Part shown: piece by piece, positions 28,464 through 31,494 of the stretch
Position numbering within the stretch: the first letter of the stretch is position 1
Layout: each line of letters starts with the position of its first letter
Source: Acidimicrobiaceae bacterium
GTDB taxonomy: Bacteria > Actinomycetota > Acidimicrobiia > Acidimicrobiales > Ilumatobacteraceae
Length of the DNA stretch: 64,000 nt
Direction of reading: 5' to 3'
Assembly (NCBI GenBank): GCA_031404435.1
Contig: JANNHO010000339.1
Coordinates: 543-64,542, forward strand
Made by a program: the position numbers and the translations under genes
The notes under the pieces: model-generated
Database searches by the model: none
What the model was told of the DNA's origin: nothing
The model's input: the letters and a program-made list of their open reading frames with translations, nothing else

Positions 28464-29321
28464 TTGCCAGGTGTGATCGAACAGCATCCGTTACCCGCCG
28501 CGGTCCGTTCGTTGGCGGAACGCGTCGGTGCCGCAGCGGTGCTGAAGGTGATCCGCGCGTCCAGCAGTGCTGTTGCGCGTCCTGCTGTGGCGTGCGGTGA
28601 GATTCCTGTCGTGGTCTGTGCCAACGATCCGTGCATGCAGCTCGCCGAGCGCTTCCGGCTGGCACTGATCGATGAGTCGATCGTTGATGCTCAGCCAGAG
28701 GTTCGCCGCACAGGCCTGCACCAGGCCGTGCAACACCTGCTGCCCGGCGGATGGCTGGCCTTCGTTCCGATCATGTCCGCCCGGCCCGATTCCGCCCGGC
28801 CCGATTCGGCCAGACTGGAGCCGACCGGATTTGCCGCGTTGTGCGCCGAGTTCGAGATGACCCCGGATCGATCGCTGGCTCGCGACGGTCTGGCGGTGTT
28901 TCGCCGTGGCGAGCGAACAACGGTTCATGATCTGATGTTCGAGGCGCGCTCGACGATTGGTCGGGTTGAGGCGAGCGAGTTGCACCGGCTGCTCGACTCC
29001 GCTGCTCCACCGTTGGTCATCGACACCCGGACGCACGTCGACCGCGCCCGGTCTGGTGTGATCGCGGGCTCGATCCACGTTCCGCGAACCGTGCTGGAGT
29101 GGCACCTCGACCCGATGAACGGATACCGCCACCCGCAGGTGACCTCGTATGACCAAGCGATGGTGGTGGTGTGCAACGGCGGATACAGCTCGTCGTTGGC
29201 CGCGGCAAGTCTGGCACGCCTGGGTTTCACGGCGATCGCTGATCTGATCGGTGGGATGCATGCGTGGCGGGCCAGCGGCTTGCCAACCGCATCGCCTGAT
29301 CACTCGTTCCTCGACCTGTAG
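28464..29321 (+). CDS. rhodanese-domain protein with an N-terminal uncharacterised (methyltransferase-remnant-like) region
   Basis: The C-terminal 110 aa has the rhodanese pattern (LVIDTR....G.I.GS.H.P........[16 protein letters not shown]). Start uncertain (TTG 28464 or GTG 28473). Confidence 0.65.
28779..28808 (+). repeat. 15-bp x2 in-frame tandem duplication (ARPDS x2)
   Basis: gcccggcccgattcc / gcccggcccgattcg are adjacent. Confidence 0.85.
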
Positions 29322-29332
29322 AACGACCTGCG

Positions 29333-29839
29333 TCAGCACCGCCTCAAGACGGCGTGCGTGAACCGCTGGATGGCACCCGACGGTGTCGTGTGATCGGTCT
29401 CGAACGATTCGATGAGATTGAACGCCGGAGCAAAGACGTCGACGATCGACGCTTCGTCGTGTTGGTGCACGGCGAGACCACTGCACTGCGTTGGACCGCT
29501 TCGCGCGAACGCCGAGAGGACGACGTGACCACCGCGACGAACAGCGCGCGCCGCGGCGGCGGCGTACGCAGCACGATCGGCAGCAGTCGTGAAGAAATGG
29601 AACACGGCGCGGTCGTGCCATGCGTCGATCGGTTCGGCGAAGGCCACCGTTCGGGCATCGCCGGTGAGCGTGACGAGCCGATCGTGTTCACCAACTCGTG
29701 AGCGCACCAGCGCCAGCGGAGTTGCCGAGATGTCGTTGGCGATCACACGGTGTCCGTCGACGAGGAGCTCATCGATCAATCCAGATGCACCGGCGCCGAT
29801 GACGGCGATGGTCGCTGAAGGCACCGTGACACGGCGCAA
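29333..29839 (-). CDS. class I SAM-dependent methyltransferase (short form)
   Basis: IAVIGAGASGL glycine motif and the WHDRAVFHFF and GG.VVL..F patterns. TTG 29839 or GTG 29824 start. Confidence 0.7.
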   Translation of the reverse strand: MRRVTVPSATIAVIGAGASGLIDELLVDGHRVIANDISATPLALVRSRVGEHDRLVTLTGDARTVAFAEPIDAWHDRAVFHFFTTAADRAAYAAAAARAVRRGGHVVLSAFARSGPTQCSGLAVHQHDEASIVDVFAPAFNLIESFETDHTTPSGAIQRFTHAVLRRC

Positions 29840-29892
29840 CAGCGTGAGTCAAGGTTCGGTGCTGCGTTGGTACCAGCTCATCCGATCGGGCA

Positions 29893-29913
29893 ATGCCGTC
29901 TGCCAGACGGCAT
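29893..29913. promoter_or_regulatory. 21-bp perfect palindrome ATGCCGTCTG-C-CAGACGGCAT in a divergent intergenic region
   Basis: 10-bp arms around a single central base, between the methyltransferase start (29839) and the CMD start (30050). Confidence 0.45.
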
Positions 29914-30049
29914 CCCAGTGCTCGACGATGCCGACCATTCGATGACCATAGGCCGGGAGCCGAGCGTGATCGATCGGACAGCCGAAAACAATCACGAAAC
30001 TCGGCGCGACAAGGAGGGCGGCTGCCTGTCGAACTGGAAGGATTGCCCT

Positions 30050-30604
30050 ATGCCGCGGATCGATCTGCTCGATGAAACCACCTCTCCGATCCTCGCCAGG
30101 CAGTACTTCGGCGATGGCGATCCGGGCCCGATCGTCGCCGCGCTCGCCAACGTGCCAGAACTACTGGCACCGACCATTGCCTTTGTCGGCGCAGCCCTCG
30201 GAGGAGGTGCCTCCTCCAGCCGGCACAAGGAGTTCGCAATCCTGCGGACATCGGCACTGCTGGGTTGCCAGTACTGCATCAATTCGCATACTGCTGTTGC
30301 GGTCGATGCCGGCTTGAGTGCTGCCGAAGTACGCAGCCTGCGCGGTGAGGTGCCGGTGGAGGAAGCGTTCACCGACGTCGCCGAGCGGGCGCTGCTGCGT
30401 TGGATCGACGCGATGGCCGGGGCCAGCGGCGCAGTCCCCGACGACATCTGGGCGGCGGCACGCTCGTGGTGGCCCGATCATGTCCTCGTCGAGTTGAGCG
30501 TCACCATCGGTGCGACCATGTTCCTCAATCGGTTCGCGACAGGCTTCGAGCTGCCCACCTCACCAAGCGTTCTCGCTCGACTTGACGCCGAAGGCCTGCG
30601 ATGA
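30050..30604 (+). CDS. carboxymuconolactone decarboxylase / AhpD-like family protein
   Basis: Trimmed to ATG 30050. EFAILRTSALLGCQYCINSH carries the AhpD-like CxxC motif. The stop overlaps the radical SAM start (ATGA). Confidence 0.78.
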   Translation: MPRIDLLDETTSPILARQYFGDGDPGPIVAALANVPELLAPTIAFVGAALGGGASSSRHKEFAILRTSALLGCQYCINSHTAVAVDAGLSAAEVRSLRGEVPVEEAFTDVAERALLRWIDAMAGASGAVPDDIWAAARSWWPDHVLVELSVTIGATMFLNRFATGFELPTSPSVLARLDAEGLR

Positions 30605-31494
30605 CCGACACCCTTCCAGCACCGGGACTGGCACCGGCACCGGCACCGGGGTCAATCGCCGCCGCCGTTGCCGAGGGCATGCTGCCGGGTCGGGTGTGGT
30701 TGTACACCAACTATCACTGCAACCTGGCGTGCTCGTACTGCCTCACTGAATCGTCACCGCGTAGCGATCGCCGGCAACTCGAACCGGCGGTCATGACCGC
30801 CGTCGCCGCGCAGGCTGCGCAGCTCGGCTTCACCGCGCTCGGTGTGACCGGGGGTGAGCCGTTTCTGTTGCCGTGGTTGCCGGACATGATCGTCGAGATG
30901 GCCGAACACCTCCCCGTCGTGGTACTGACCAATGGCACCCTGTTCGGTGGTGAGCGGATCGAACGTGGTGCCGCGTTGGCCCATCCCCACATCGCCGTGC
31001 AGATCTCGCTCGATTCGCACCTTCCCGACATCAACGACATGGCCAGAGGTGCCGACAACTTCGCTAAGGTCGTCGACGCCGTGCCGCGCCTGGTGGCACG
31101 GGGTGTGCGGGTGCGGATCGCCACCACCACCTCGGGACCGCTCGATGACTCGGCGCTCGATCCGCTGCGCGCGTTGGTCGCCGAACTCGGCGTAGCGGCC
31201 GAGGATCACCTCGTTCGCCCGGTGGTCCGCCGAGGGCGTGCTGACGAGCGCGGATTCGGCCTCGCTGCCAGCGCACAGGACATCCCGAGCGAGTTGACGA
31301 TCACCGCCGACGGCGCGTTCTGGGGGAGCTTCGGGCCAACCGTGCGTGCCGGTCGGCTCGACACTGATCTGTTGCTCACGCGAACGGTGTTGCCGTTGTC
31401 GGTCCCGGCACATGCGTTGCTCGAGGCGCATGCATTGCTCGAGGCGGATGGGGCGATGCCGCCAGGCCACGACGCGAAGCTCGGCATCCGTTGA
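30601..31494 (+). CDS. radical SAM protein (no auxiliary Cys-rich/SPASM region visible)
   Basis: YHCNLACSYC is a CX3CX2C motif, followed by a GGEPFL SAM-binding motif. There are no Cys residues in the C-terminal half. Confidence 0.8.
   Translation: MTDTLPAPGLAPAPAPGSIAAAVAEGMLPGRVWLYTNYHCNLACSYCLTESSPRSDRRQLEPAVMTAVAAQAAQLGFTALGVTGGEPFLLPWLPDMIVEMAEHLPVVVLTNGTLFGGERIERGAALAHPHIAVQISLDSHLPDINDMARGADNFAKVVDAVPRLVARGVRVRIATTTSGPLDDSALDPLRALVAELGVAAEDHLVRPVVRRGRADERGFGLAASAQDIPSELTITADGAFWGSFGPTVRAGRLDTDLLLTRTVLPLSVPAHALLEAHALLEADGAMPPGHDAKLGIR
31411..31446 (+). repeat. 18-bp x2 in-frame tandem duplication (HALLEA x2) in the radical SAM C-terminus
   Basis: catgcgttgctcgaggcg / catgcattgctcgaggcg are adjacent. 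Confidence 0.85.

What the first reader, a model, noticed from the sequence alone, without database searches (positions are those of the whole stretch)
28464..31494. Uncharacterised rhodanese / SAM-methyltransferase / AhpD-like / radical SAM gene group
**What the sequence shows.**
- An AhpD-like CMD protein with a CQYC motif (30050..30604) is translationally coupled (ATGA) to a 297-aa radical SAM enzyme (CNLACSYC, GGEPFL). That enzyme has no second Cys cluster, no SPASM/twitch region and no obvious precursor peptide nearby.
- Divergent from the pair is a short class I methyltransferase.
- Next to that is a protein joining an unrecognisable N-terminal region to a rhodanese domain (active-site CNGGYSS).

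**Interpretation.** I do not recognise this combination of sulfur-transfer, redox CxxC, methylation and radical chemistry as a described pathway. It lies directly beside TIGR04282/TIGR04283-like transferases. As I recall, those families were defined by co-occurrence with a radical SAM (seleno)protein, later linked to arsenosugar synthesis (ArsS). The radical SAM here lacks the ArsS C-terminal domain, so it may be a distinct variant.
Basis: inference. Interest (0 to 1): 0.66.

Follow-up and report, generated by a model that had tools for sequence, protein, structure and literature searches.

The report
Uncharacterised radical SAM glycan-modification gene cluster
The four genes are real and belong to a larger gene system, conserved across several bacterial phyla and of unknown function, in which an unstudied radical SAM enzyme (a relative of M. 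tuberculosis MoeX/Rv1681) sits with sulfur-handling proteins and a set of sugar-transfer genes that resembles the pathway making the methylthio-xylose cap of tuberculosis lipoarabinomannan.

Summary
**Observation: confirmed.**
- An AhpD-like CMD protein (C73-x2-C76-x3-H80) overlaps by ATGA a 297-aa radical SAM (rSAM) enzyme with only three Cys.
- A short class I methyltransferase is divergent from the pair.
- An N-domain+rhodanese protein lies beside it.

**Conservation.** CMD sits directly upstream of this rSAM in 63 of 85 loci compared (84 related loci plus the window).

**What the rSAM is.**
- It is not ArsS or MoaA, and no characterised family claims it.
- Its best match is the uncharacterised Rv1681 (MoeX) family (213 bits, cutoff 380).
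- It lacks that family's TusA-like N-domain and C-terminal Cys.

**The group is part of a bigger system.** Among 57 loci with full flanks:

| Partner | Share of loci |
|---|---|
| DUF2064 | 70% |
| GT2 | 72% |
| DoxD/Rv1678-like membrane protein | 72% |

- Epimerase, MTA phosphorylase, methyltransferase and rhodanese recur.
- A true Rv1681-family operon in Verrucomicrobia carries DUF2064, GT-C, epimerase, GT2, DoxD, MT, rSAM, SBP-like and ACAD together.
- The transferase set matches in enzyme content the M. tuberculosis methylthio-xylose (MTX) pathway. Orthology was not testable.

**Best guess (about 0.3).** An ArsS-like capture of the 5'-deoxyadenosyl radical on protein-bound (methyl)sulfur feeds this sugar pathway.

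**Verdict.** New variant of a known kind; function unproven.

The parts
28464..29321 (+). 285-aa protein: unassigned N-terminal ~150 aa plus a single GlpE-type rhodanese domain (loop CNGGYSS). Accessory sulfur-carrier candidate.
   Evidence: - PF00581 51 bits over residues 170-270. The N-domain has no Pfam hit at E<=10.
- hhalign of the N-domain against the MT family gives only 39% probability.
- Orthologous rhodanese lies within 7 kb of the rSAM in 15 of 57 full-flank loci, all of them CMD+.
- It is fused to a class I MT in L068/L069 and translationally coupled to the MT in L033.
- A 15-nt tandem repeat sits at 28776-28811.
29333..29839 (-). 168-aa short class I SAM methyltransferase, convergent with the rhodanese gene and divergent from CMD.
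   Evidence: - Methyltransf_11 35 bits (cutoff 21.2). No specific NCBIfam or PDB relative.
- The same MT family occurs in 17 of 57 loci, all CMD+.
- The L033 homolog is 219 aa with an N-terminal cap that the window protein lacks.
- Non-homologous MTs recur next to relatives: L085/L086, L068 and L088.
29840..30049 (.). 210-bp divergent intergenic region between MT and CMD (presumed promoters). No room for, and no sign of, a conserved precursor-peptide gene.
   Evidence: Sequence. No Rfam family. No convincing consensus promoter or terminator.
30050..30604 (+). 184-aa AhpD-like CMD protein with redox motif C73-x2-C76-x3-H80. Constant partner of the rSAM.
   Evidence: - PF02627 41 bits, TIGR00778 30.1 bits (cutoff 27.8).
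- PDB relatives are AhpD-fold proteins of unknown function: 2gmy, 2o4d.
- It is directly upstream of the rSAM on the same strand, with an invariant C-x-[YF]-C-x3-H, in 63 of 85 loci compared.
30601..31494 (+). 297-aa radical SAM enzyme: C40x3C44x2C47, GGE 84-86, no other Cys, Cys-less twitch-like C-domain, conserved C-terminal P-x-G-x-D-x3-[GN]-I-R. ATGA overlap with CMD.
   Evidence: -.
- Best NCBIfam match is NF049973 Rv1681 family, 213 bits (cutoff 380).
- Only 49 50%-identity clusters reach E<1e-30.
- Model pLDDT 88. Foldseek top hits: SkfB (TM 0.65), EpeE, SuiB, BlsE, DesII, viperin, AbmM.
- An 18-nt tandem duplication at 31407-31450 adds AHALLE.
31536..32216 (-). 226-aa DUF2064 (CofC/MobA-like nucleotide-diphospho-sugar transferase fold), TIGR04282-like. 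Convergent with the rSAM, 41 bp away.
   Evidence: - PF09837 54 bits. TIGR04282 95 bits (cutoff 134). PDB 3cgx.
- Within 7 kb of the rSAM in 40 of 57 loci, including loci without CMD.
- Fused to NUDIX in L058.
32256..32948 (-). 230-aa GT2 of the dolichyl/polyprenyl-phosphate-sugar synthase type (MtxS-like in role).
   Evidence: - PF00535 69 bits.
- Best NCBIfam matches: Dol-P hexose transferase 78 bits, AglJ 75, PpgS 50. TIGR04283 only 39 bits (cutoff 182).
- Found in 41 of 57 loci.
- 39% identical to the GT2 of the Verrucomicrobia Rv1681-family operon L088.
32804..34063 (+). SDR sugar epimerase/dehydratase-family protein. The true start is probably near 32960, giving about 367 aa. It has a Cys/His-rich insertion (C-x2-H...C-P-x-C).
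   Evidence: - PF01370 148 bits in two stretches.
- Found in 23 of 57 loci.
- 37% identical over its full length, insertion included, to the L088 epimerase (E 3e-56).
34066..35529 (-). ~445-487-aa polytopic membrane protein with no family assignment. Conserved HxxGHPPG and EVERIWL motifs. Candidate lipid-linked-sugar transferase (unproven).
   Evidence: - No Pfam, NCBIfam or PDB hit.
- Found in 18 of 57 loci, all CMD+.
- Fused to the DoxD-like protein in L001 and L019. Alignment A6.
- Not homologous to the GT87 of L088.
- A 15-nt x4.5 repeat sits in its 5' end.
35457..36443 (-). 328-aa DoxD/DoxX-like membrane protein with an Rv1678-type C-terminal region. The commonest third partner of CMD-rSAM.
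   Evidence: - PF04173 25 bits (cutoff 22.7). NF049986 Rv1678_C 18 bits (cutoff 50) in the window.
- The Nonomuraea ortholog, directly downstream of its rSAM, scores 70.6 bits (cutoff 50).
- Found in 41 of 57 loci.
36511..37560 (+). 349-aa PAP2_3 phosphatase/phosphotransferase-family membrane protein. A loosely associated neighbour.
   Evidence: PF14378 95 bits. Present in only 5 of 57 loci, all close relatives.

Best explanation
**Shown.** The window carries a variant of a multi-phylum gene system of unknown function built around one narrow rSAM clade.
- That clade holds the Rv1681/MoeX family plus this Cys-less, CMD-partnered sister subfamily.
- Its recurrent partners fall into three groups:
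  1. Thiol or sulfur-relay proteins: an AhpD-like CxxC protein, a DoxD/Rv1678-like membrane protein, and rhodanese or a TusA-like domain.
  2. A methyltransferase.
  3. A glycosylation set: DUF2064, SDR epimerase, polyprenyl-P-sugar-type GT2, a membrane transferase, and often a bona fide MTA phosphorylase.

**Inferred mechanism (about 0.3).**
1. By analogy with ArsS, the rSAM uses its 5'-deoxyadenosyl radical as a building block rather than as an oxidant.
2. The radical is captured on a protein-bound (methyl)persulfide held on the CxxC of the CMD protein. Rhodanese loads the sulfur and the MT methylates it, either before or after capture.
3. The product is a 5'-thio- or 5'-methylthio- (or seleno-) 5'-deoxyadenosine.
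4. The second Cys resolves the thiyl radical. The DoxD-like protein couples the dithiol/disulfide to the quinone pool.
5. MTA phosphorylase, DUF2064 (nucleotidyl activation), epimerase, GT2 and a membrane transferase then turn the nucleoside into a lipid-linked 5-thiopentose that decorates an envelope glycan, as in the M. tuberculosis MTX pathway.
For: **Core pair.** CMD is directly upstream of the rSAM with an invariant CxxCxxxH in 63 of 85 loci compared. In the window the two genes overlap by ATGA.

**System-level linkage** (57 loci with at least 3 kb on both flanks):

| Partner | Loci |
|---|---|
| DUF2064 | 40 |
| GT2 | 41 |
| DoxD-like | 41 |
| Epimerase | 23 |
| MT | 17 |
| Rhodanese | 15 |
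| MTA phosphorylase | 12 |

- The loci span Acidimicrobiia, Thermoleophilia, Actinomycetes, Chloroflexota and a Myxococcota-like MAG.
- The MTA phosphorylase is above the equivalog cutoffs: 346 bits (cutoff 306) and 292 bits (cutoff 275).

**A true Rv1681-family operon puts the parts together.**
- Verrucomicrobia locus L088 reads DUF2064-GT87-epimerase-GT2-DoxD-MT-rSAM, with SBP-like and ACAD genes alongside.
- Its proteins are 30-39% identical to the window's.

**Rhodanese-MT link.** The two are fused in L068/L069, translationally coupled in L033, and convergent neighbours in the window clade.

**A sulfur-carrier theme recurs.** Rv1681-type enzymes carry a TusA-like N-domain (JGI names).

**No auxiliary cluster.** There are only three Cys, so any sulfur donor must be external.

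**Precedents.**
- The NCBIfam ArsS set pairs an rSAM with an AhpD-like protein, TIGR04282 and a GT2.
- MTX synthesis starts from 5'-methylthioadenosine and uses a Dec-P donor made by the GT2 MtxS and a GT-C, MtxT (PMC11127046, PMC12088412, PMC8780516).
- DoxX works with the rhodanese SseA in thiol redox in M. tuberculosis (PMC9227533).

**DUF2064 handles NDP-linked substrates.** The DUF2064-NUDIX fusion points that way.
Against: - There is no biochemical evidence of any kind.
- MTA is a ubiquitous metabolite, so a radical route to it looks redundant.
- MT and rhodanese lie within 7 kb in only about 26-30% of loci. The recurring MTs belong to at least three unrelated families.
- The rSAM is no closer to adenosylating enzymes than to others. 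ArsS scores 46 bits and HpnH 38, while MftC scores 64 and MoaA 50.
- Its best structural neighbours are peptide-modifying enzymes: SkfB, EpeE, SuiB.
- 13 of 42 CMD+ loci lack DUF2064/GT2 nearby, for example Nonomuraea and Allorhizocola.
- The window itself has no MTA phosphorylase.
- Orthology of the window transferases to Rv0535-Rv0541c could not be tested. The roles of Rv0535, Rv0536 and Rv0540 are recalled from Angala et al. 2017, which was not readable here.
- The 487-aa membrane protein could not be shown to be a GT-C.
Confidence: 0.32

Rival explanations
1. **Radical tailoring of the sugar or nucleoside.** The rSAM abstracts a hydrogen from a pentose, nucleoside or NDP-sugar intermediate of the adjacent pathway. 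Examples are ribo-to-xylo C3 epimerisation, dehydrogenation or deoxygenation, as in EpeE, DesII, BlsE or BtrN. The CMD CxxC acts as the H-atom or electron partner. The DoxD-like protein links it to quinones.
For: - Foldseek and profile hits include EpeE (a Cys H-donor epimerase), DesII, BlsE, viperin and AbmM, all acting on peptides or nucleotide sugars.
- The rSAM has no spare Cys, so a thiol H-donor must come in trans. Rv1681-type enzymes, which lack a CMD partner, end in a conserved F-x-C-[AG].
- Conserved Arg residues (R149, R172, R206, R211) suggest an anionic substrate.
- Linkage to DUF2064/GT2/epimerase is tight.
Against: - It does not explain the recurrent MT and the rhodanese/TusA-like components.
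- An SDR epimerase is already present in 40% of loci.
- CMD-less members of the window subfamily have no C-terminal Cys.
- M. tuberculosis makes MTX with no rSAM in its MTX cluster (recalled).
Confidence: 0.24
2. **Stand-alone sulfur or thiol-redox module.** CMD-rSAM-DoxD (with rhodanese, MT, SBP-like and ACAD-like partners in various lineages) processes an organosulfur or oxyanion small molecule, or matures a cofactor. Its clustering with glycosylation genes reflects co-regulation of envelope functions, not a shared pathway.
For: - The minimal arrangement CMD-rSAM-DoxD-like occurs without transferases in many loci.
- Nonomuraea and Allorhizocola place it beside a PhnD-type ABC importer plus MT.
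- Partners hit the Rv1680 SBP-like family (second-best match: putative selenate SBP) and the Rv1679 ACAD family (relatives: desulfinase, SfnB, DszC).
- DoxX-SseA gives a thiol-redox precedent.
Against: - DUF2064 and GT2 are rare families, yet they sit within 7 kb of this rSAM clade in about 70% of loci across phyla.
- They also lie in a single operon with SBP-like and ACAD genes in L088.
- That pattern is hard to explain without a shared pathway.
Confidence: 0.15
3. **Protein or RiPP maturase.** The rSAM modifies a peptide, or the CMD protein itself (thioether, epimerisation, or Cys oxidation as by SkfB, EpeE or anSME).
For: The best structural and profile matches are SkfB, SuiB, EpeE and anSME. 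The pair is obligately adjacent.
Against: - There is no conserved small ORF. Intergenic gaps in the minimal operons are about 90-100 bp, and no small-ORF family is shared across lineages.
- There is no RRE, no SPASM cysteines, and no protease or exporter.
- CMD conservation is that of a normal AhpD active site.
Confidence: 0.07
4. **Arsenosugar (ArsS-type) pathway variant**, as the first reader leaned towards. The MT methylates arsenic and the rSAM adenosylates it.
For: The partner architecture is the same as in the NCBIfam ArsS set. PhnD-type binding proteins (a family that includes arsenite binders, recalled) lie near relatives.
Against: - ArsS scores 45.6 bits (cutoff 300) and the Cys-rich C-domain is absent.
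- The MT has no ArsM signature or hit.
- TIGR04169, TIGR04282 and TIGR04283 are all below cutoff.
- No ars genes were found in the 33 window ORFs scanned.
Confidence: 0.05
5. **Molybdenum-cofactor enzyme** (MoaA-like), as the historical 'MoeX' name implies.
For: Weak similarity of the N-terminal core to MoaA (50 bits). A molybdopterin oxidoreductase gene lies 6.5 kb away.
Against: - MoaA cutoff is 284 bits.
- There are no C-terminal auxiliary-cluster Cys and no moaC/moaD/moaE neighbours in any locus.
Confidence: 0.02

Closest known systems
Rv1681 (MoeX) family radical SAM protein and its curated partner set: NCBIfam NF049973, with NF049984 (Rv1679 ACAD), NF049985 (Rv1680 SBP-like) and NF049986 (Rv1678 membrane). 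Function unknown.
   Same: - It is the best-scoring family (213 bits), covering residues 23-268.
- Core motifs are shared: W-x-Y-x-N-x2-CNLxCxYC, QISLDS, RG, the E231/G238 region.
- The partner repertoire in relatives is shared: Rv1678-type membrane protein (above cutoff in Nonomuraea), Rv1679-like ACAD, Rv1680-like SBP.
- Both are linked to DUF2064, epimerase and GT2.
   Different: - The score is below the equivalog cutoff of 380.
- It lacks the ~70-aa TusA-like N-domain and the C-terminal F-x-C-[AG].
- It has its own conserved P-x-G-x-D-x3-[GN]-I-R end and an AhpD-like CxxC partner gene that the Rv1681-type operons examined lack.
- The window has no Rv1679- or Rv1680-like genes.
ArsS arsenosugar system: TIGR04167 rSAM, TIGR04169 AhpD-like, TIGR04282 DUF2064 and TIGR04283 GT2.
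   Same: The same four kinds of component lie side by side. The DUF2064 protein is a recognisable TIGR04282 relative. In the ArsS chemistry as I recall it, the 5'-deoxyadenosyl radical adds to a methylated heteroatom; this is the model for the favoured mechanism.
   Different: - Every component is below its family cutoff: 45.6/300, 23/120, 95/134 and 39/182 bits.
- There is no Cys-rich or seleno C-domain, no ArsM, and no arsenic genes in view.
M. tuberculosis MTX (5-methylthio-xylofuranose) capping pathway: Rv0535 MTAP, Rv0536 GalE3, Rv0539 MtxS, Rv0540, Rv0541c MtxT.
   Same: The enzyme set is the same in the window and its relatives: DUF2064, SDR epimerase, polyprenyl-P-sugar-type GT2, polytopic membrane protein(s) (GT87 or PIG-V-type GT-C in some relatives), and MTA phosphorylase in 12 loci.
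   Different: - Orthology was not testable here.
- The window's 487-aa membrane protein is not recognisably GT-C.
- The M. tuberculosis cluster has no adjacent rSAM, CMD, rhodanese or MT.
- The organisms here are not mycobacteria and have no known LAM.
Twitch/SPASM-class rSAM enzymes (SkfB, EpeE/YydG, SuiB, anSME) and cluster-less nucleotide-sugar rSAMs (BlsE, DesII, viperin, AbmM).
   Same: The overall fold, including the C-terminal beta-hairpin/helix region, is shared (TM 0.55-0.65). The N-terminal core is similar in sequence.
   Different: There are no auxiliary-cluster cysteines. Sequence similarity stops at about residue 180. There is no peptide substrate gene.

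Membership tests
Radical SAM superfamily (PF04055) | CX3CX2C cluster motif, GGE SAM-binding motif, partial TIM-barrel fold, Pfam score above the gathering cutoff | tested here: met
   C40/C44/C47 and G84-G85-E86. PF04055 59 bits (cutoff 29.5). 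Model pLDDT 88 with rSAM-fold matches at E down to 1e-12.
Rv1681 (MoeX) family rSAM, NF049973 | Whole-protein score at or above the curated equivalog cutoff (380 bits) | tested here: not met
   213 bits. Genuine members P0144 and P0147 score 437 and 457 bits.
Rv1681 (MoeX) family rSAM, NF049973 | N-terminal TusA/SirA-like domain and a C-terminal F-x-C-[AG] end | tested here: not met
   Alignment A1 shows both absent from the window protein and its subfamily, which ends in ..G-x-D-x3-[GN]-I-R.
Rv1681 (MoeX) family rSAM, NF049973 | Genomic association with an Rv1678-type membrane protein, an Rv1679-type ACAD and an Rv1680-type SBP-like protein | tested here: inconclusive
   - The window has a DoxD-like protein with only 18 bits to NF049986 (cutoff 50), and no Rv1679- or Rv1680-like genes.
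- Relatives of the same subfamily do carry them: 70.6 bits (cutoff 50), 408 bits (cutoff 600) and 233 bits (cutoff 400).
ArsS arsenosugar rSAM, TIGR04167 | Score at or above 300 bits, with the C-terminal Cys-rich (seleno)domain | tested here: not met
   45.6 bits over model positions 13-147 only. There are no Cys beyond the cluster motif.
ArsS arsenosugar system | Partner families TIGR04169, TIGR04282 and TIGR04283 above cutoff, plus an ArsM methyltransferase | tested here: not met
   23 bits (cutoff 120), 95 bits (cutoff 134) and 39 bits (cutoff 182). The MT has no ArsM-type hit.
SPASM/twitch rSAM subgroup | C-terminal domain whose Cys residues bind one or two auxiliary Fe-S clusters | tested here: not met
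   No cysteines lie outside CX3CX2C. Only the fold resembles twitch enzymes.
MoaA (GTP 3',8-cyclase) | Equivalog score (284 bits) and C-terminal auxiliary-cluster Cys | tested here: not met
   49.8 bits, with no C-terminal Cys.
AhpD-like / CMD family (PF02627, TIGR00778) | CMD domain above cutoff, with the CxxCxxxH redox motif | tested here: met
   41 bits (cutoff 23) and 30.1 bits (cutoff 27.8). C73-x2-C76-x3-H80 is invariant in 64 family members.
Rhodanese (PF00581), single-domain GlpE/PspE type | Rhodanese domain above cutoff, with an active-site Cys in a six-residue loop | tested here: met
   51 bits (cutoff 22.2). The loop C-N-G-G-Y-S-S is conserved as C-[ND]-x-G-[YW]-[SQ]-S in orthologs. 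Sulfurtransferase activity was not tested.
MTX-type lipid-linked 5-thiopentose pathway (M. tuberculosis Rv0535-Rv0541c) | Presence of MTA phosphorylase, a DUF2064-type enzyme, an SDR epimerase and a polyprenyl-P-sugar GT2 (MtxS-like) | tested here: inconclusive
   - DUF2064, epimerase and a Dol-P/polyprenyl-P-type GT2 are present in the window.
- MTAP is absent from the window. A bona fide MTAP lies in the cluster in 12 related loci.
- The match is at the level of enzyme families only.
MTX-type lipid-linked 5-thiopentose pathway (M. tuberculosis Rv0535-Rv0541c) | GT-C transferase (MtxT-like) | tested here: inconclusive
   - The window's 487-aa membrane protein has no Pfam, NCBIfam or PDB match, and hhalign against a GT87 gives 0.4% probability.
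- Relatives' clusters contain GT87 and PIG-V/PMT_2-type GT-Cs.
MTX-type lipid-linked 5-thiopentose pathway (M. tuberculosis Rv0535-Rv0541c) | Orthology to the M. tuberculosis proteins, and production of a 5-methylthio-pentose glycan | not testable with these tools
Glycan chemistry needs experiment.

The most novel reading that the evidence does not exclude
This rSAM clade, M. tuberculosis MoeX/Rv1681 included, performs ArsS-like chemistry on chalcogens.
- It forms the C5'-S (or C5'-Se) bond by trapping the 5'-deoxyadenosyl radical on a protein persulfide or methyl-persulfide. The carrier is an AhpD-like CxxC protein in this subfamily, or the enzyme's own C-terminal Cys in the Rv1681 type.
- The product feeds an MTX-type lipid-linked thiopentose pathway.

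If so, methylthio-pentose glycan decoration exists well outside mycobacteria. The orphan Rv1676-Rv1681 locus of M. tuberculosis would then be functionally tied to the MTX/MSX cap of lipoarabinomannan.
Probability: 0.15. Interest if true: 0.85.

Novelty: new variant of a known kind. Interest (0 to 1): 0.6.

Why it matters
1. **It puts an orphan family in a pathway context.** MoeX/Rv1681 relatives have no known function. MoeX is known only as a urinary tuberculosis antigen, and its Moco-related name appears unfounded. Here the clade sits in a concrete, testable context: sulfur relay + methylation + an MTX-like glycosylation set.
2. **It bears on an open question.** A 2024 paper on pentofuranose glycan modification states that it is unclear whether the MTA-derived MTX route exists outside lipoarabinomannan assembly (PMC11127046). 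The matching enzyme sets found here in Acidimicrobiia, Thermoleophilia, Chloroflexota and Verrucomicrobia suggest it may. They also supply cultured organisms in which to test it (Nonomuraea, Allorhizocola).
3. **It may define a general route.** DUF2064 enzymes now appear beside three sources of 5'-substituted adenosines: ArsS, MTA, and possibly this rSAM. That would point to a common path from 5'-modified adenosines to unusual 5-substituted pentose glycans.
4. **It may show a new way to do radical chemistry without an auxiliary cluster.** An rSAM that lacks one but has an obligate CxxC partner could reveal how radical sulfur or H-atom chemistry is completed in trans.

Tried and rejected
- **First structure prediction.** It used 41 close homologs and was unusable (pLDDT 59). 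It was replaced by an 86-sequence alignment (pLDDT 88).
- **Apparent CMD-rSAM fusion proteins.** I first read P0306 (444 aa) and P0128 (461 aa) as Rosetta-stone evidence. Their sequences show out-of-frame junk between the two halves. They are frameshift artefacts of overlapping genes and are not used. L075 is likewise doubtful.
- **GC3-based gene calling.** It mis-called the DUF2064/GT2 strand. I replaced it with conservation-guided ORF choice plus HMM searches.
- **N-domain of the rhodanese protein as a degenerate MT.** hhalign gives only 39% probability over 26 columns. Left unassigned.
- **The 487-aa membrane protein as a GT-C.** Not shown: single-sequence and profile PDB searches, Pfam at E<=10, and hhalign against GT87 were all negative.
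- **Complementarity idea.** The idea was that an enzyme has either a CMD partner or a C-terminal Cys. It holds only between the two subfamilies. CMD-less members of the window subfamily have no C-terminal Cys.
- **Riboswitch or leader.** No Rfam hit in the window. No convincing promoter or terminator.
- **Literature.** Nothing on DUF2064, on Rv1678-Rv1681 function, or on AhpD-rSAM pairs. Angala 2017 and the 2018 review are not held.
- **Arsenic or selenium genes.** None among the 33 window ORFs scanned.

Full report
**1.

The window is high-GC (about 66%). The nearest relatives of its genes come from Acidimicrobiaceae and Ilumatobacteraceae MAGs (L005 proteins are 90-99% identical).

| Gene | Coordinates | Key features |
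|---|---|---|
| N-domain + rhodanese | 28464..29321 (+), 285 aa | Rhodanese over residues 170-270, loop CNGGYSS |
| Short class I MT | 29333..29839 (-), 168 aa | Methyltransf_11 |
| AhpD-like CMD | 30050..30604 (+), 184 aa | C73QYC76INSH80 |
| Radical SAM | 30601..31494 (+), 297 aa | C40NLAC44SYC47, GGEPFL, no other Cys |

The CMD stop and the rSAM start overlap as ATGA. No Rfam family and no convincing promoter or terminator were found around them.

**2. What the rSAM is, and is not.**

- NCBIfam gives one outstanding match: NF049973 "Rv1681 family radical SAM protein", 213 bits against a cutoff of 380.
- All named enzymes are far behind: MftC 64, MoaA 50, ArsS 46, viperin 42, HpnH 38.
- The clade is narrow. 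Among 1.8 billion cluster representatives, only 49 reach E<1e-30.
- Alignment separates two types.
  - Genuine Rv1681 members score 437-457 bits. They carry a ~70-aa TusA-like N-domain, which JGI also annotates as "TusA-related sulfurtransferase". They end in F-x-C-[AG].
  - The window type has neither. It ends in a conserved P-x-G-x-D-x3-[GN]-I-R.
- Structure:
  - A first AlphaFold run was poor. A second, with 86 sequences, gave pLDDT 88.
  - Foldseek aligns the model over its whole length with SkfB (TM 0.65). EpeE/YydG, SuiB, BlsE, DesII, viperin, anSME, MoaA and AbmM follow.
  - Sequence-profile similarity to solved structures ends near residue 180.
  - The C-terminal region therefore looks like a twitch-like domain that has lost its cluster cysteines.
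- All sources simply call the homologs "radical SAM protein". No paper addresses Rv1681 function.

**3. The pair is a conserved cassette.**

A scan of one genome per GTDB species returned 80 loci. With loci from exact-protein look-ups this gave 84 related loci, plus the window.

- An HMM for the CMD protein finds it immediately upstream of the rSAM, on the same strand, in 63 of these 85 loci. In every one the motif C-x-[YF]-C-x3-H is present.
- Two database "fusion" proteins (P0306, P0128) turned out to be frameshift artefacts. I do not use them.

**4. The four genes are part of a larger system.**

Partners within 7 kb, for the 57 loci with at least 3 kb on both flanks:

| Partner | Loci (of 57) |
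|---|---|
| CMD | 42 |
| GT2 | 41 |
| DoxD-like membrane protein | 41 |
| DUF2064 | 40 |
| SDR epimerase | 23 |
| 487-aa membrane protein | 18 |
| MT | 17 |
| Rhodanese | 15 |
| ACAD-like | 14 |
| MTA phosphorylase | 12 |

- 51 of the 57 loci have DoxD-like or DUF2064/GT2.
- DUF2064 and GT2 also accompany rSAMs that lack CMD (11-12 of 15). Rhodanese, MT, MTAP and the 487-aa protein occur only in CMD+ loci.
- The commonest minimal operon is CMD-rSAM-DoxD-like. Nonomuraea turcica is an example: the downstream protein passes the Rv1678-family cutoff at 70.6 bits against 50.
- Other neighbours hit the remaining members of NCBIfam's curated Rv1678-Rv1681 set. An ACAD scores 408 bits to NF049984. 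A signal-less PhnD-like protein scores 233 bits to NF049985.
- The clearest case is a true Rv1681-family locus from Verrucomicrobia (L088).
  - Its order is DUF2064, GT87 (GT-C), SDR epimerase, GT2, DoxD, MT, rSAM, followed by the SBP-like and ACAD genes.
  - Its epimerase, GT2, DUF2064, DoxD and rSAM are 30-39% identical to the window's.
  - The shared features include an unusual C-x2-H...C-P-x-C insertion in the epimerase.
- These components therefore travel together across phyla.

**5. The transferase set looks like the MTX pathway.**

- From the literature: in M. tuberculosis the GT2 MtxS (Rv0539) makes the decaprenyl-phosphate-MTX donor. The GT-C MtxT (Rv0541c) transfers it to LAM caps. 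The pathway starts from 5'-methylthioadenosine (PMC12088412, PMC8780516, PMC11127046).
- From my recollection of Angala et al. 2017 (not readable here): the cluster also holds Rv0535 (MTA phosphorylase), Rv0536 (GalE3) and Rv0540 (DUF2064-type).
- The window has DUF2064, a Dol-P/polyprenyl-P-type GT2, an SDR epimerase and a polytopic membrane protein.
- Twelve relatives add an MTA phosphorylase that passes two equivalog cutoffs.
- Other relatives carry GT87- or PIG-V-type GT-Cs, a GT87-GT2 fusion and a DUF2064-NUDIX fusion.
- Limits:
  - Orthology to the M. tuberculosis genes could not be tested.
  - The window's 487-aa protein could not be shown to be GT-C.
  - The window has no MTAP.

**6. 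Rhodanese and methyltransferase.**

- They are accessory but not accidental.
- The distinctive rhodanese (with a PRTVLEW-x-LD motif) and an MT are arranged in three ways:
  - convergent neighbours in the window clade;
  - one polypeptide directly upstream of CMD-rSAM in two Thermoleophilia genomes (L068, and L069 with a frameshift);
  - translationally coupled in a Myxococcota-like MAG (L033).
- Unrelated MTs appear beside relatives in Nonomuraea and Allorhizocola (in a PhnD-type ABC operon) and in L088.
- A sulfur-carrier-type module therefore recurs (rhodanese here, a TusA-like domain in Rv1681 proteins), and so does a methylation step.

**7. Mechanism: what is shown and what is inferred.**

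- Shown: the gene associations above; the absence of any auxiliary-cluster ligands; and an AhpD-type redox motif in an obligate partner.
- Inferred: DUF2064/GT2 sets accompany ArsS, and in M. tuberculosis they process MTA. As I recall its chemistry, ArsS makes a 5'-substituted 5'-deoxyadenosine. The simplest unifying idea is that this rSAM also makes a 5'-substituted adenosine.
- With rhodanese, MT and a CxxC carrier at hand, the substituent would be (methyl)sulfur or selenium.
  - The 5'-deoxyadenosyl radical would attack a persulfide or methyl-persulfide on the CMD cysteine.
  - The second cysteine would resolve the thiyl radical.
  - The DoxD-like protein would connect the couple to quinones. 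DoxX works with the rhodanese SseA in M. tuberculosis thiol redox (PMC9227533).
- I give this about 0.3.
- Weaknesses:
  - MTA is ubiquitous.
  - MT and rhodanese are nearby in under a third of loci.
  - Sequence and fold give no specific kinship to adenosylating enzymes.

**8. Rivals.**

| Rival | Probability | Main point against |
|---|---|---|
| Radical tailoring of the sugar or nucleoside (epimerisation or dehydrogenation), with CMD as thiol H-donor or electron sink | ~0.24 | Does not explain MT and the sulfur carriers |
| Sulfur or redox module not mechanistically tied to glycosylation | ~0.15 | Sits badly with 70% linkage to two rare families |
| RiPP or protein maturase | ~0.07 | No conserved small ORF; ~90-100-bp gaps in minimal operons |
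| ArsS-type arsenosugar pathway | ~0.05 | Every membership test fails; no ars genes seen |
| MoaA-like Moco role | ~0.02 | No Cys, no moa neighbours |

**9. Verdict.**

It is a CMD-partnered sister subfamily of the uncharacterised Rv1681/MoeX rSAMs, embedded in a cross-phylum system that joins sulfur relay, methylation and an MTX-like glycosylation set.
- It is a new variant of a known, named but unstudied kind, not a categorically new one.
- Its value lies in the testable link it suggests between MoeX-type rSAMs and thio-sugar glycan decoration.

Noticed in passing
window 31407-31450; 28776-28811; 35383-35450: In-frame short tandem repeats lie inside three genes of the cluster.
- 18 nt x2.4 in the rSAM duplicates AHALLE, relative to the 93-95% identical homolog.
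- 15 nt x2.4 in the rhodanese protein gives ARPDS repeats. L005 has three copies.
- 15 nt x4.5 lies in the 5' end of the 487-aa membrane protein (PPRIW repeats).
   Followed up: partly
window ~33330-33470 (epimerase residues ~175-220) and L088:4040-5188: The SDR epimerase carries a ~45-aa insertion with a C-x2-H...C-P-x-C pattern, possibly a zinc site. It splits the Pfam match in two. It is conserved between this actinobacterial window and a Verrucomicrobia operon.
   Followed up: partly
window 28464-31494: The rhodanese, MT, CMD and rSAM genes have lower third-position GC (0.72-0.78) than most window genes (0.80-0.87). The 28-30 kb bin has the second-lowest GC in the window (0.644; the lowest is 0.638 at 20-22 kb). 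This may hint at a later acquisition of this part of the cluster.
   Followed up: no
P0306, P0128 (database proteins); L075:9611-10846: Apparent CMD-rSAM 'fusion' proteins in public collections are frameshift read-throughs of the two overlapping genes, with junk sequence between the halves. They would mislead a domain-architecture survey.
   Followed up: yes
L058:11523-12659; L068:11184-13226; L068:16111-17301: In Gaiellales and Thermoleophilia relatives, DUF2064 is fused to a NUDIX hydrolase and the GT2 is fused to a GT87-type GT-C domain. A PIG-V/PMT_2-type GT-C follows.
   Followed up: partly
L058:8067-9466, L059:8049-9134, L068:13302-14737: Two secreted proteins lie directly next to CMD-rSAM or the GT2 in about 9 Gaiellales and Thermoleophilia loci. 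Each has a single C-x-x-C-H (haem-c-like) motif, and one also has a CarboxypepD_reg domain. Their role is unknown.
   Followed up: no
window 38025-39509 and 39500-40429: A molybdopterin oxidoreductase appears split into two overlapping ORFs (a Molybdopterin domain, then a Molydop_binding domain). This is either a frameshift or a two-gene arrangement.
   Followed up: no
window 37511-38011: A small nucleotidyltransferase-like ORF (AbiEii/DUF6036-type, weak hits) overlaps the 3' end of the PAP2 gene.
   Followed up: no
L085:6023-9329 and L086:6125-9348: In cultured Nonomuraea turcica and Allorhizocola rhizosphaerae, CMD-rSAM is divergent from an operon of a PhnD-type binding protein, an ABC ATPase, a permease and a 280-aa methyltransferase. 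The binding protein's second-level match is 'putative selenate SBP'. Allorhizocola also has a rhodanese-CBS protein and a DoxD gene nearby.
   Followed up: partly
window 22221-28487: Upstream of the cluster lie ordinary fatty-acid and CoA metabolism genes: an SDR, two acyl-CoA dehydrogenases, a luciferase-like monooxygenase, a TetR-like regulator and a thiolase. Of these, the thiolase and an acyl-CoA dehydrogenase recur beside the cluster only in the closest relative, L005. These genes are therefore unlikely to belong to it.
   Followed up: partly
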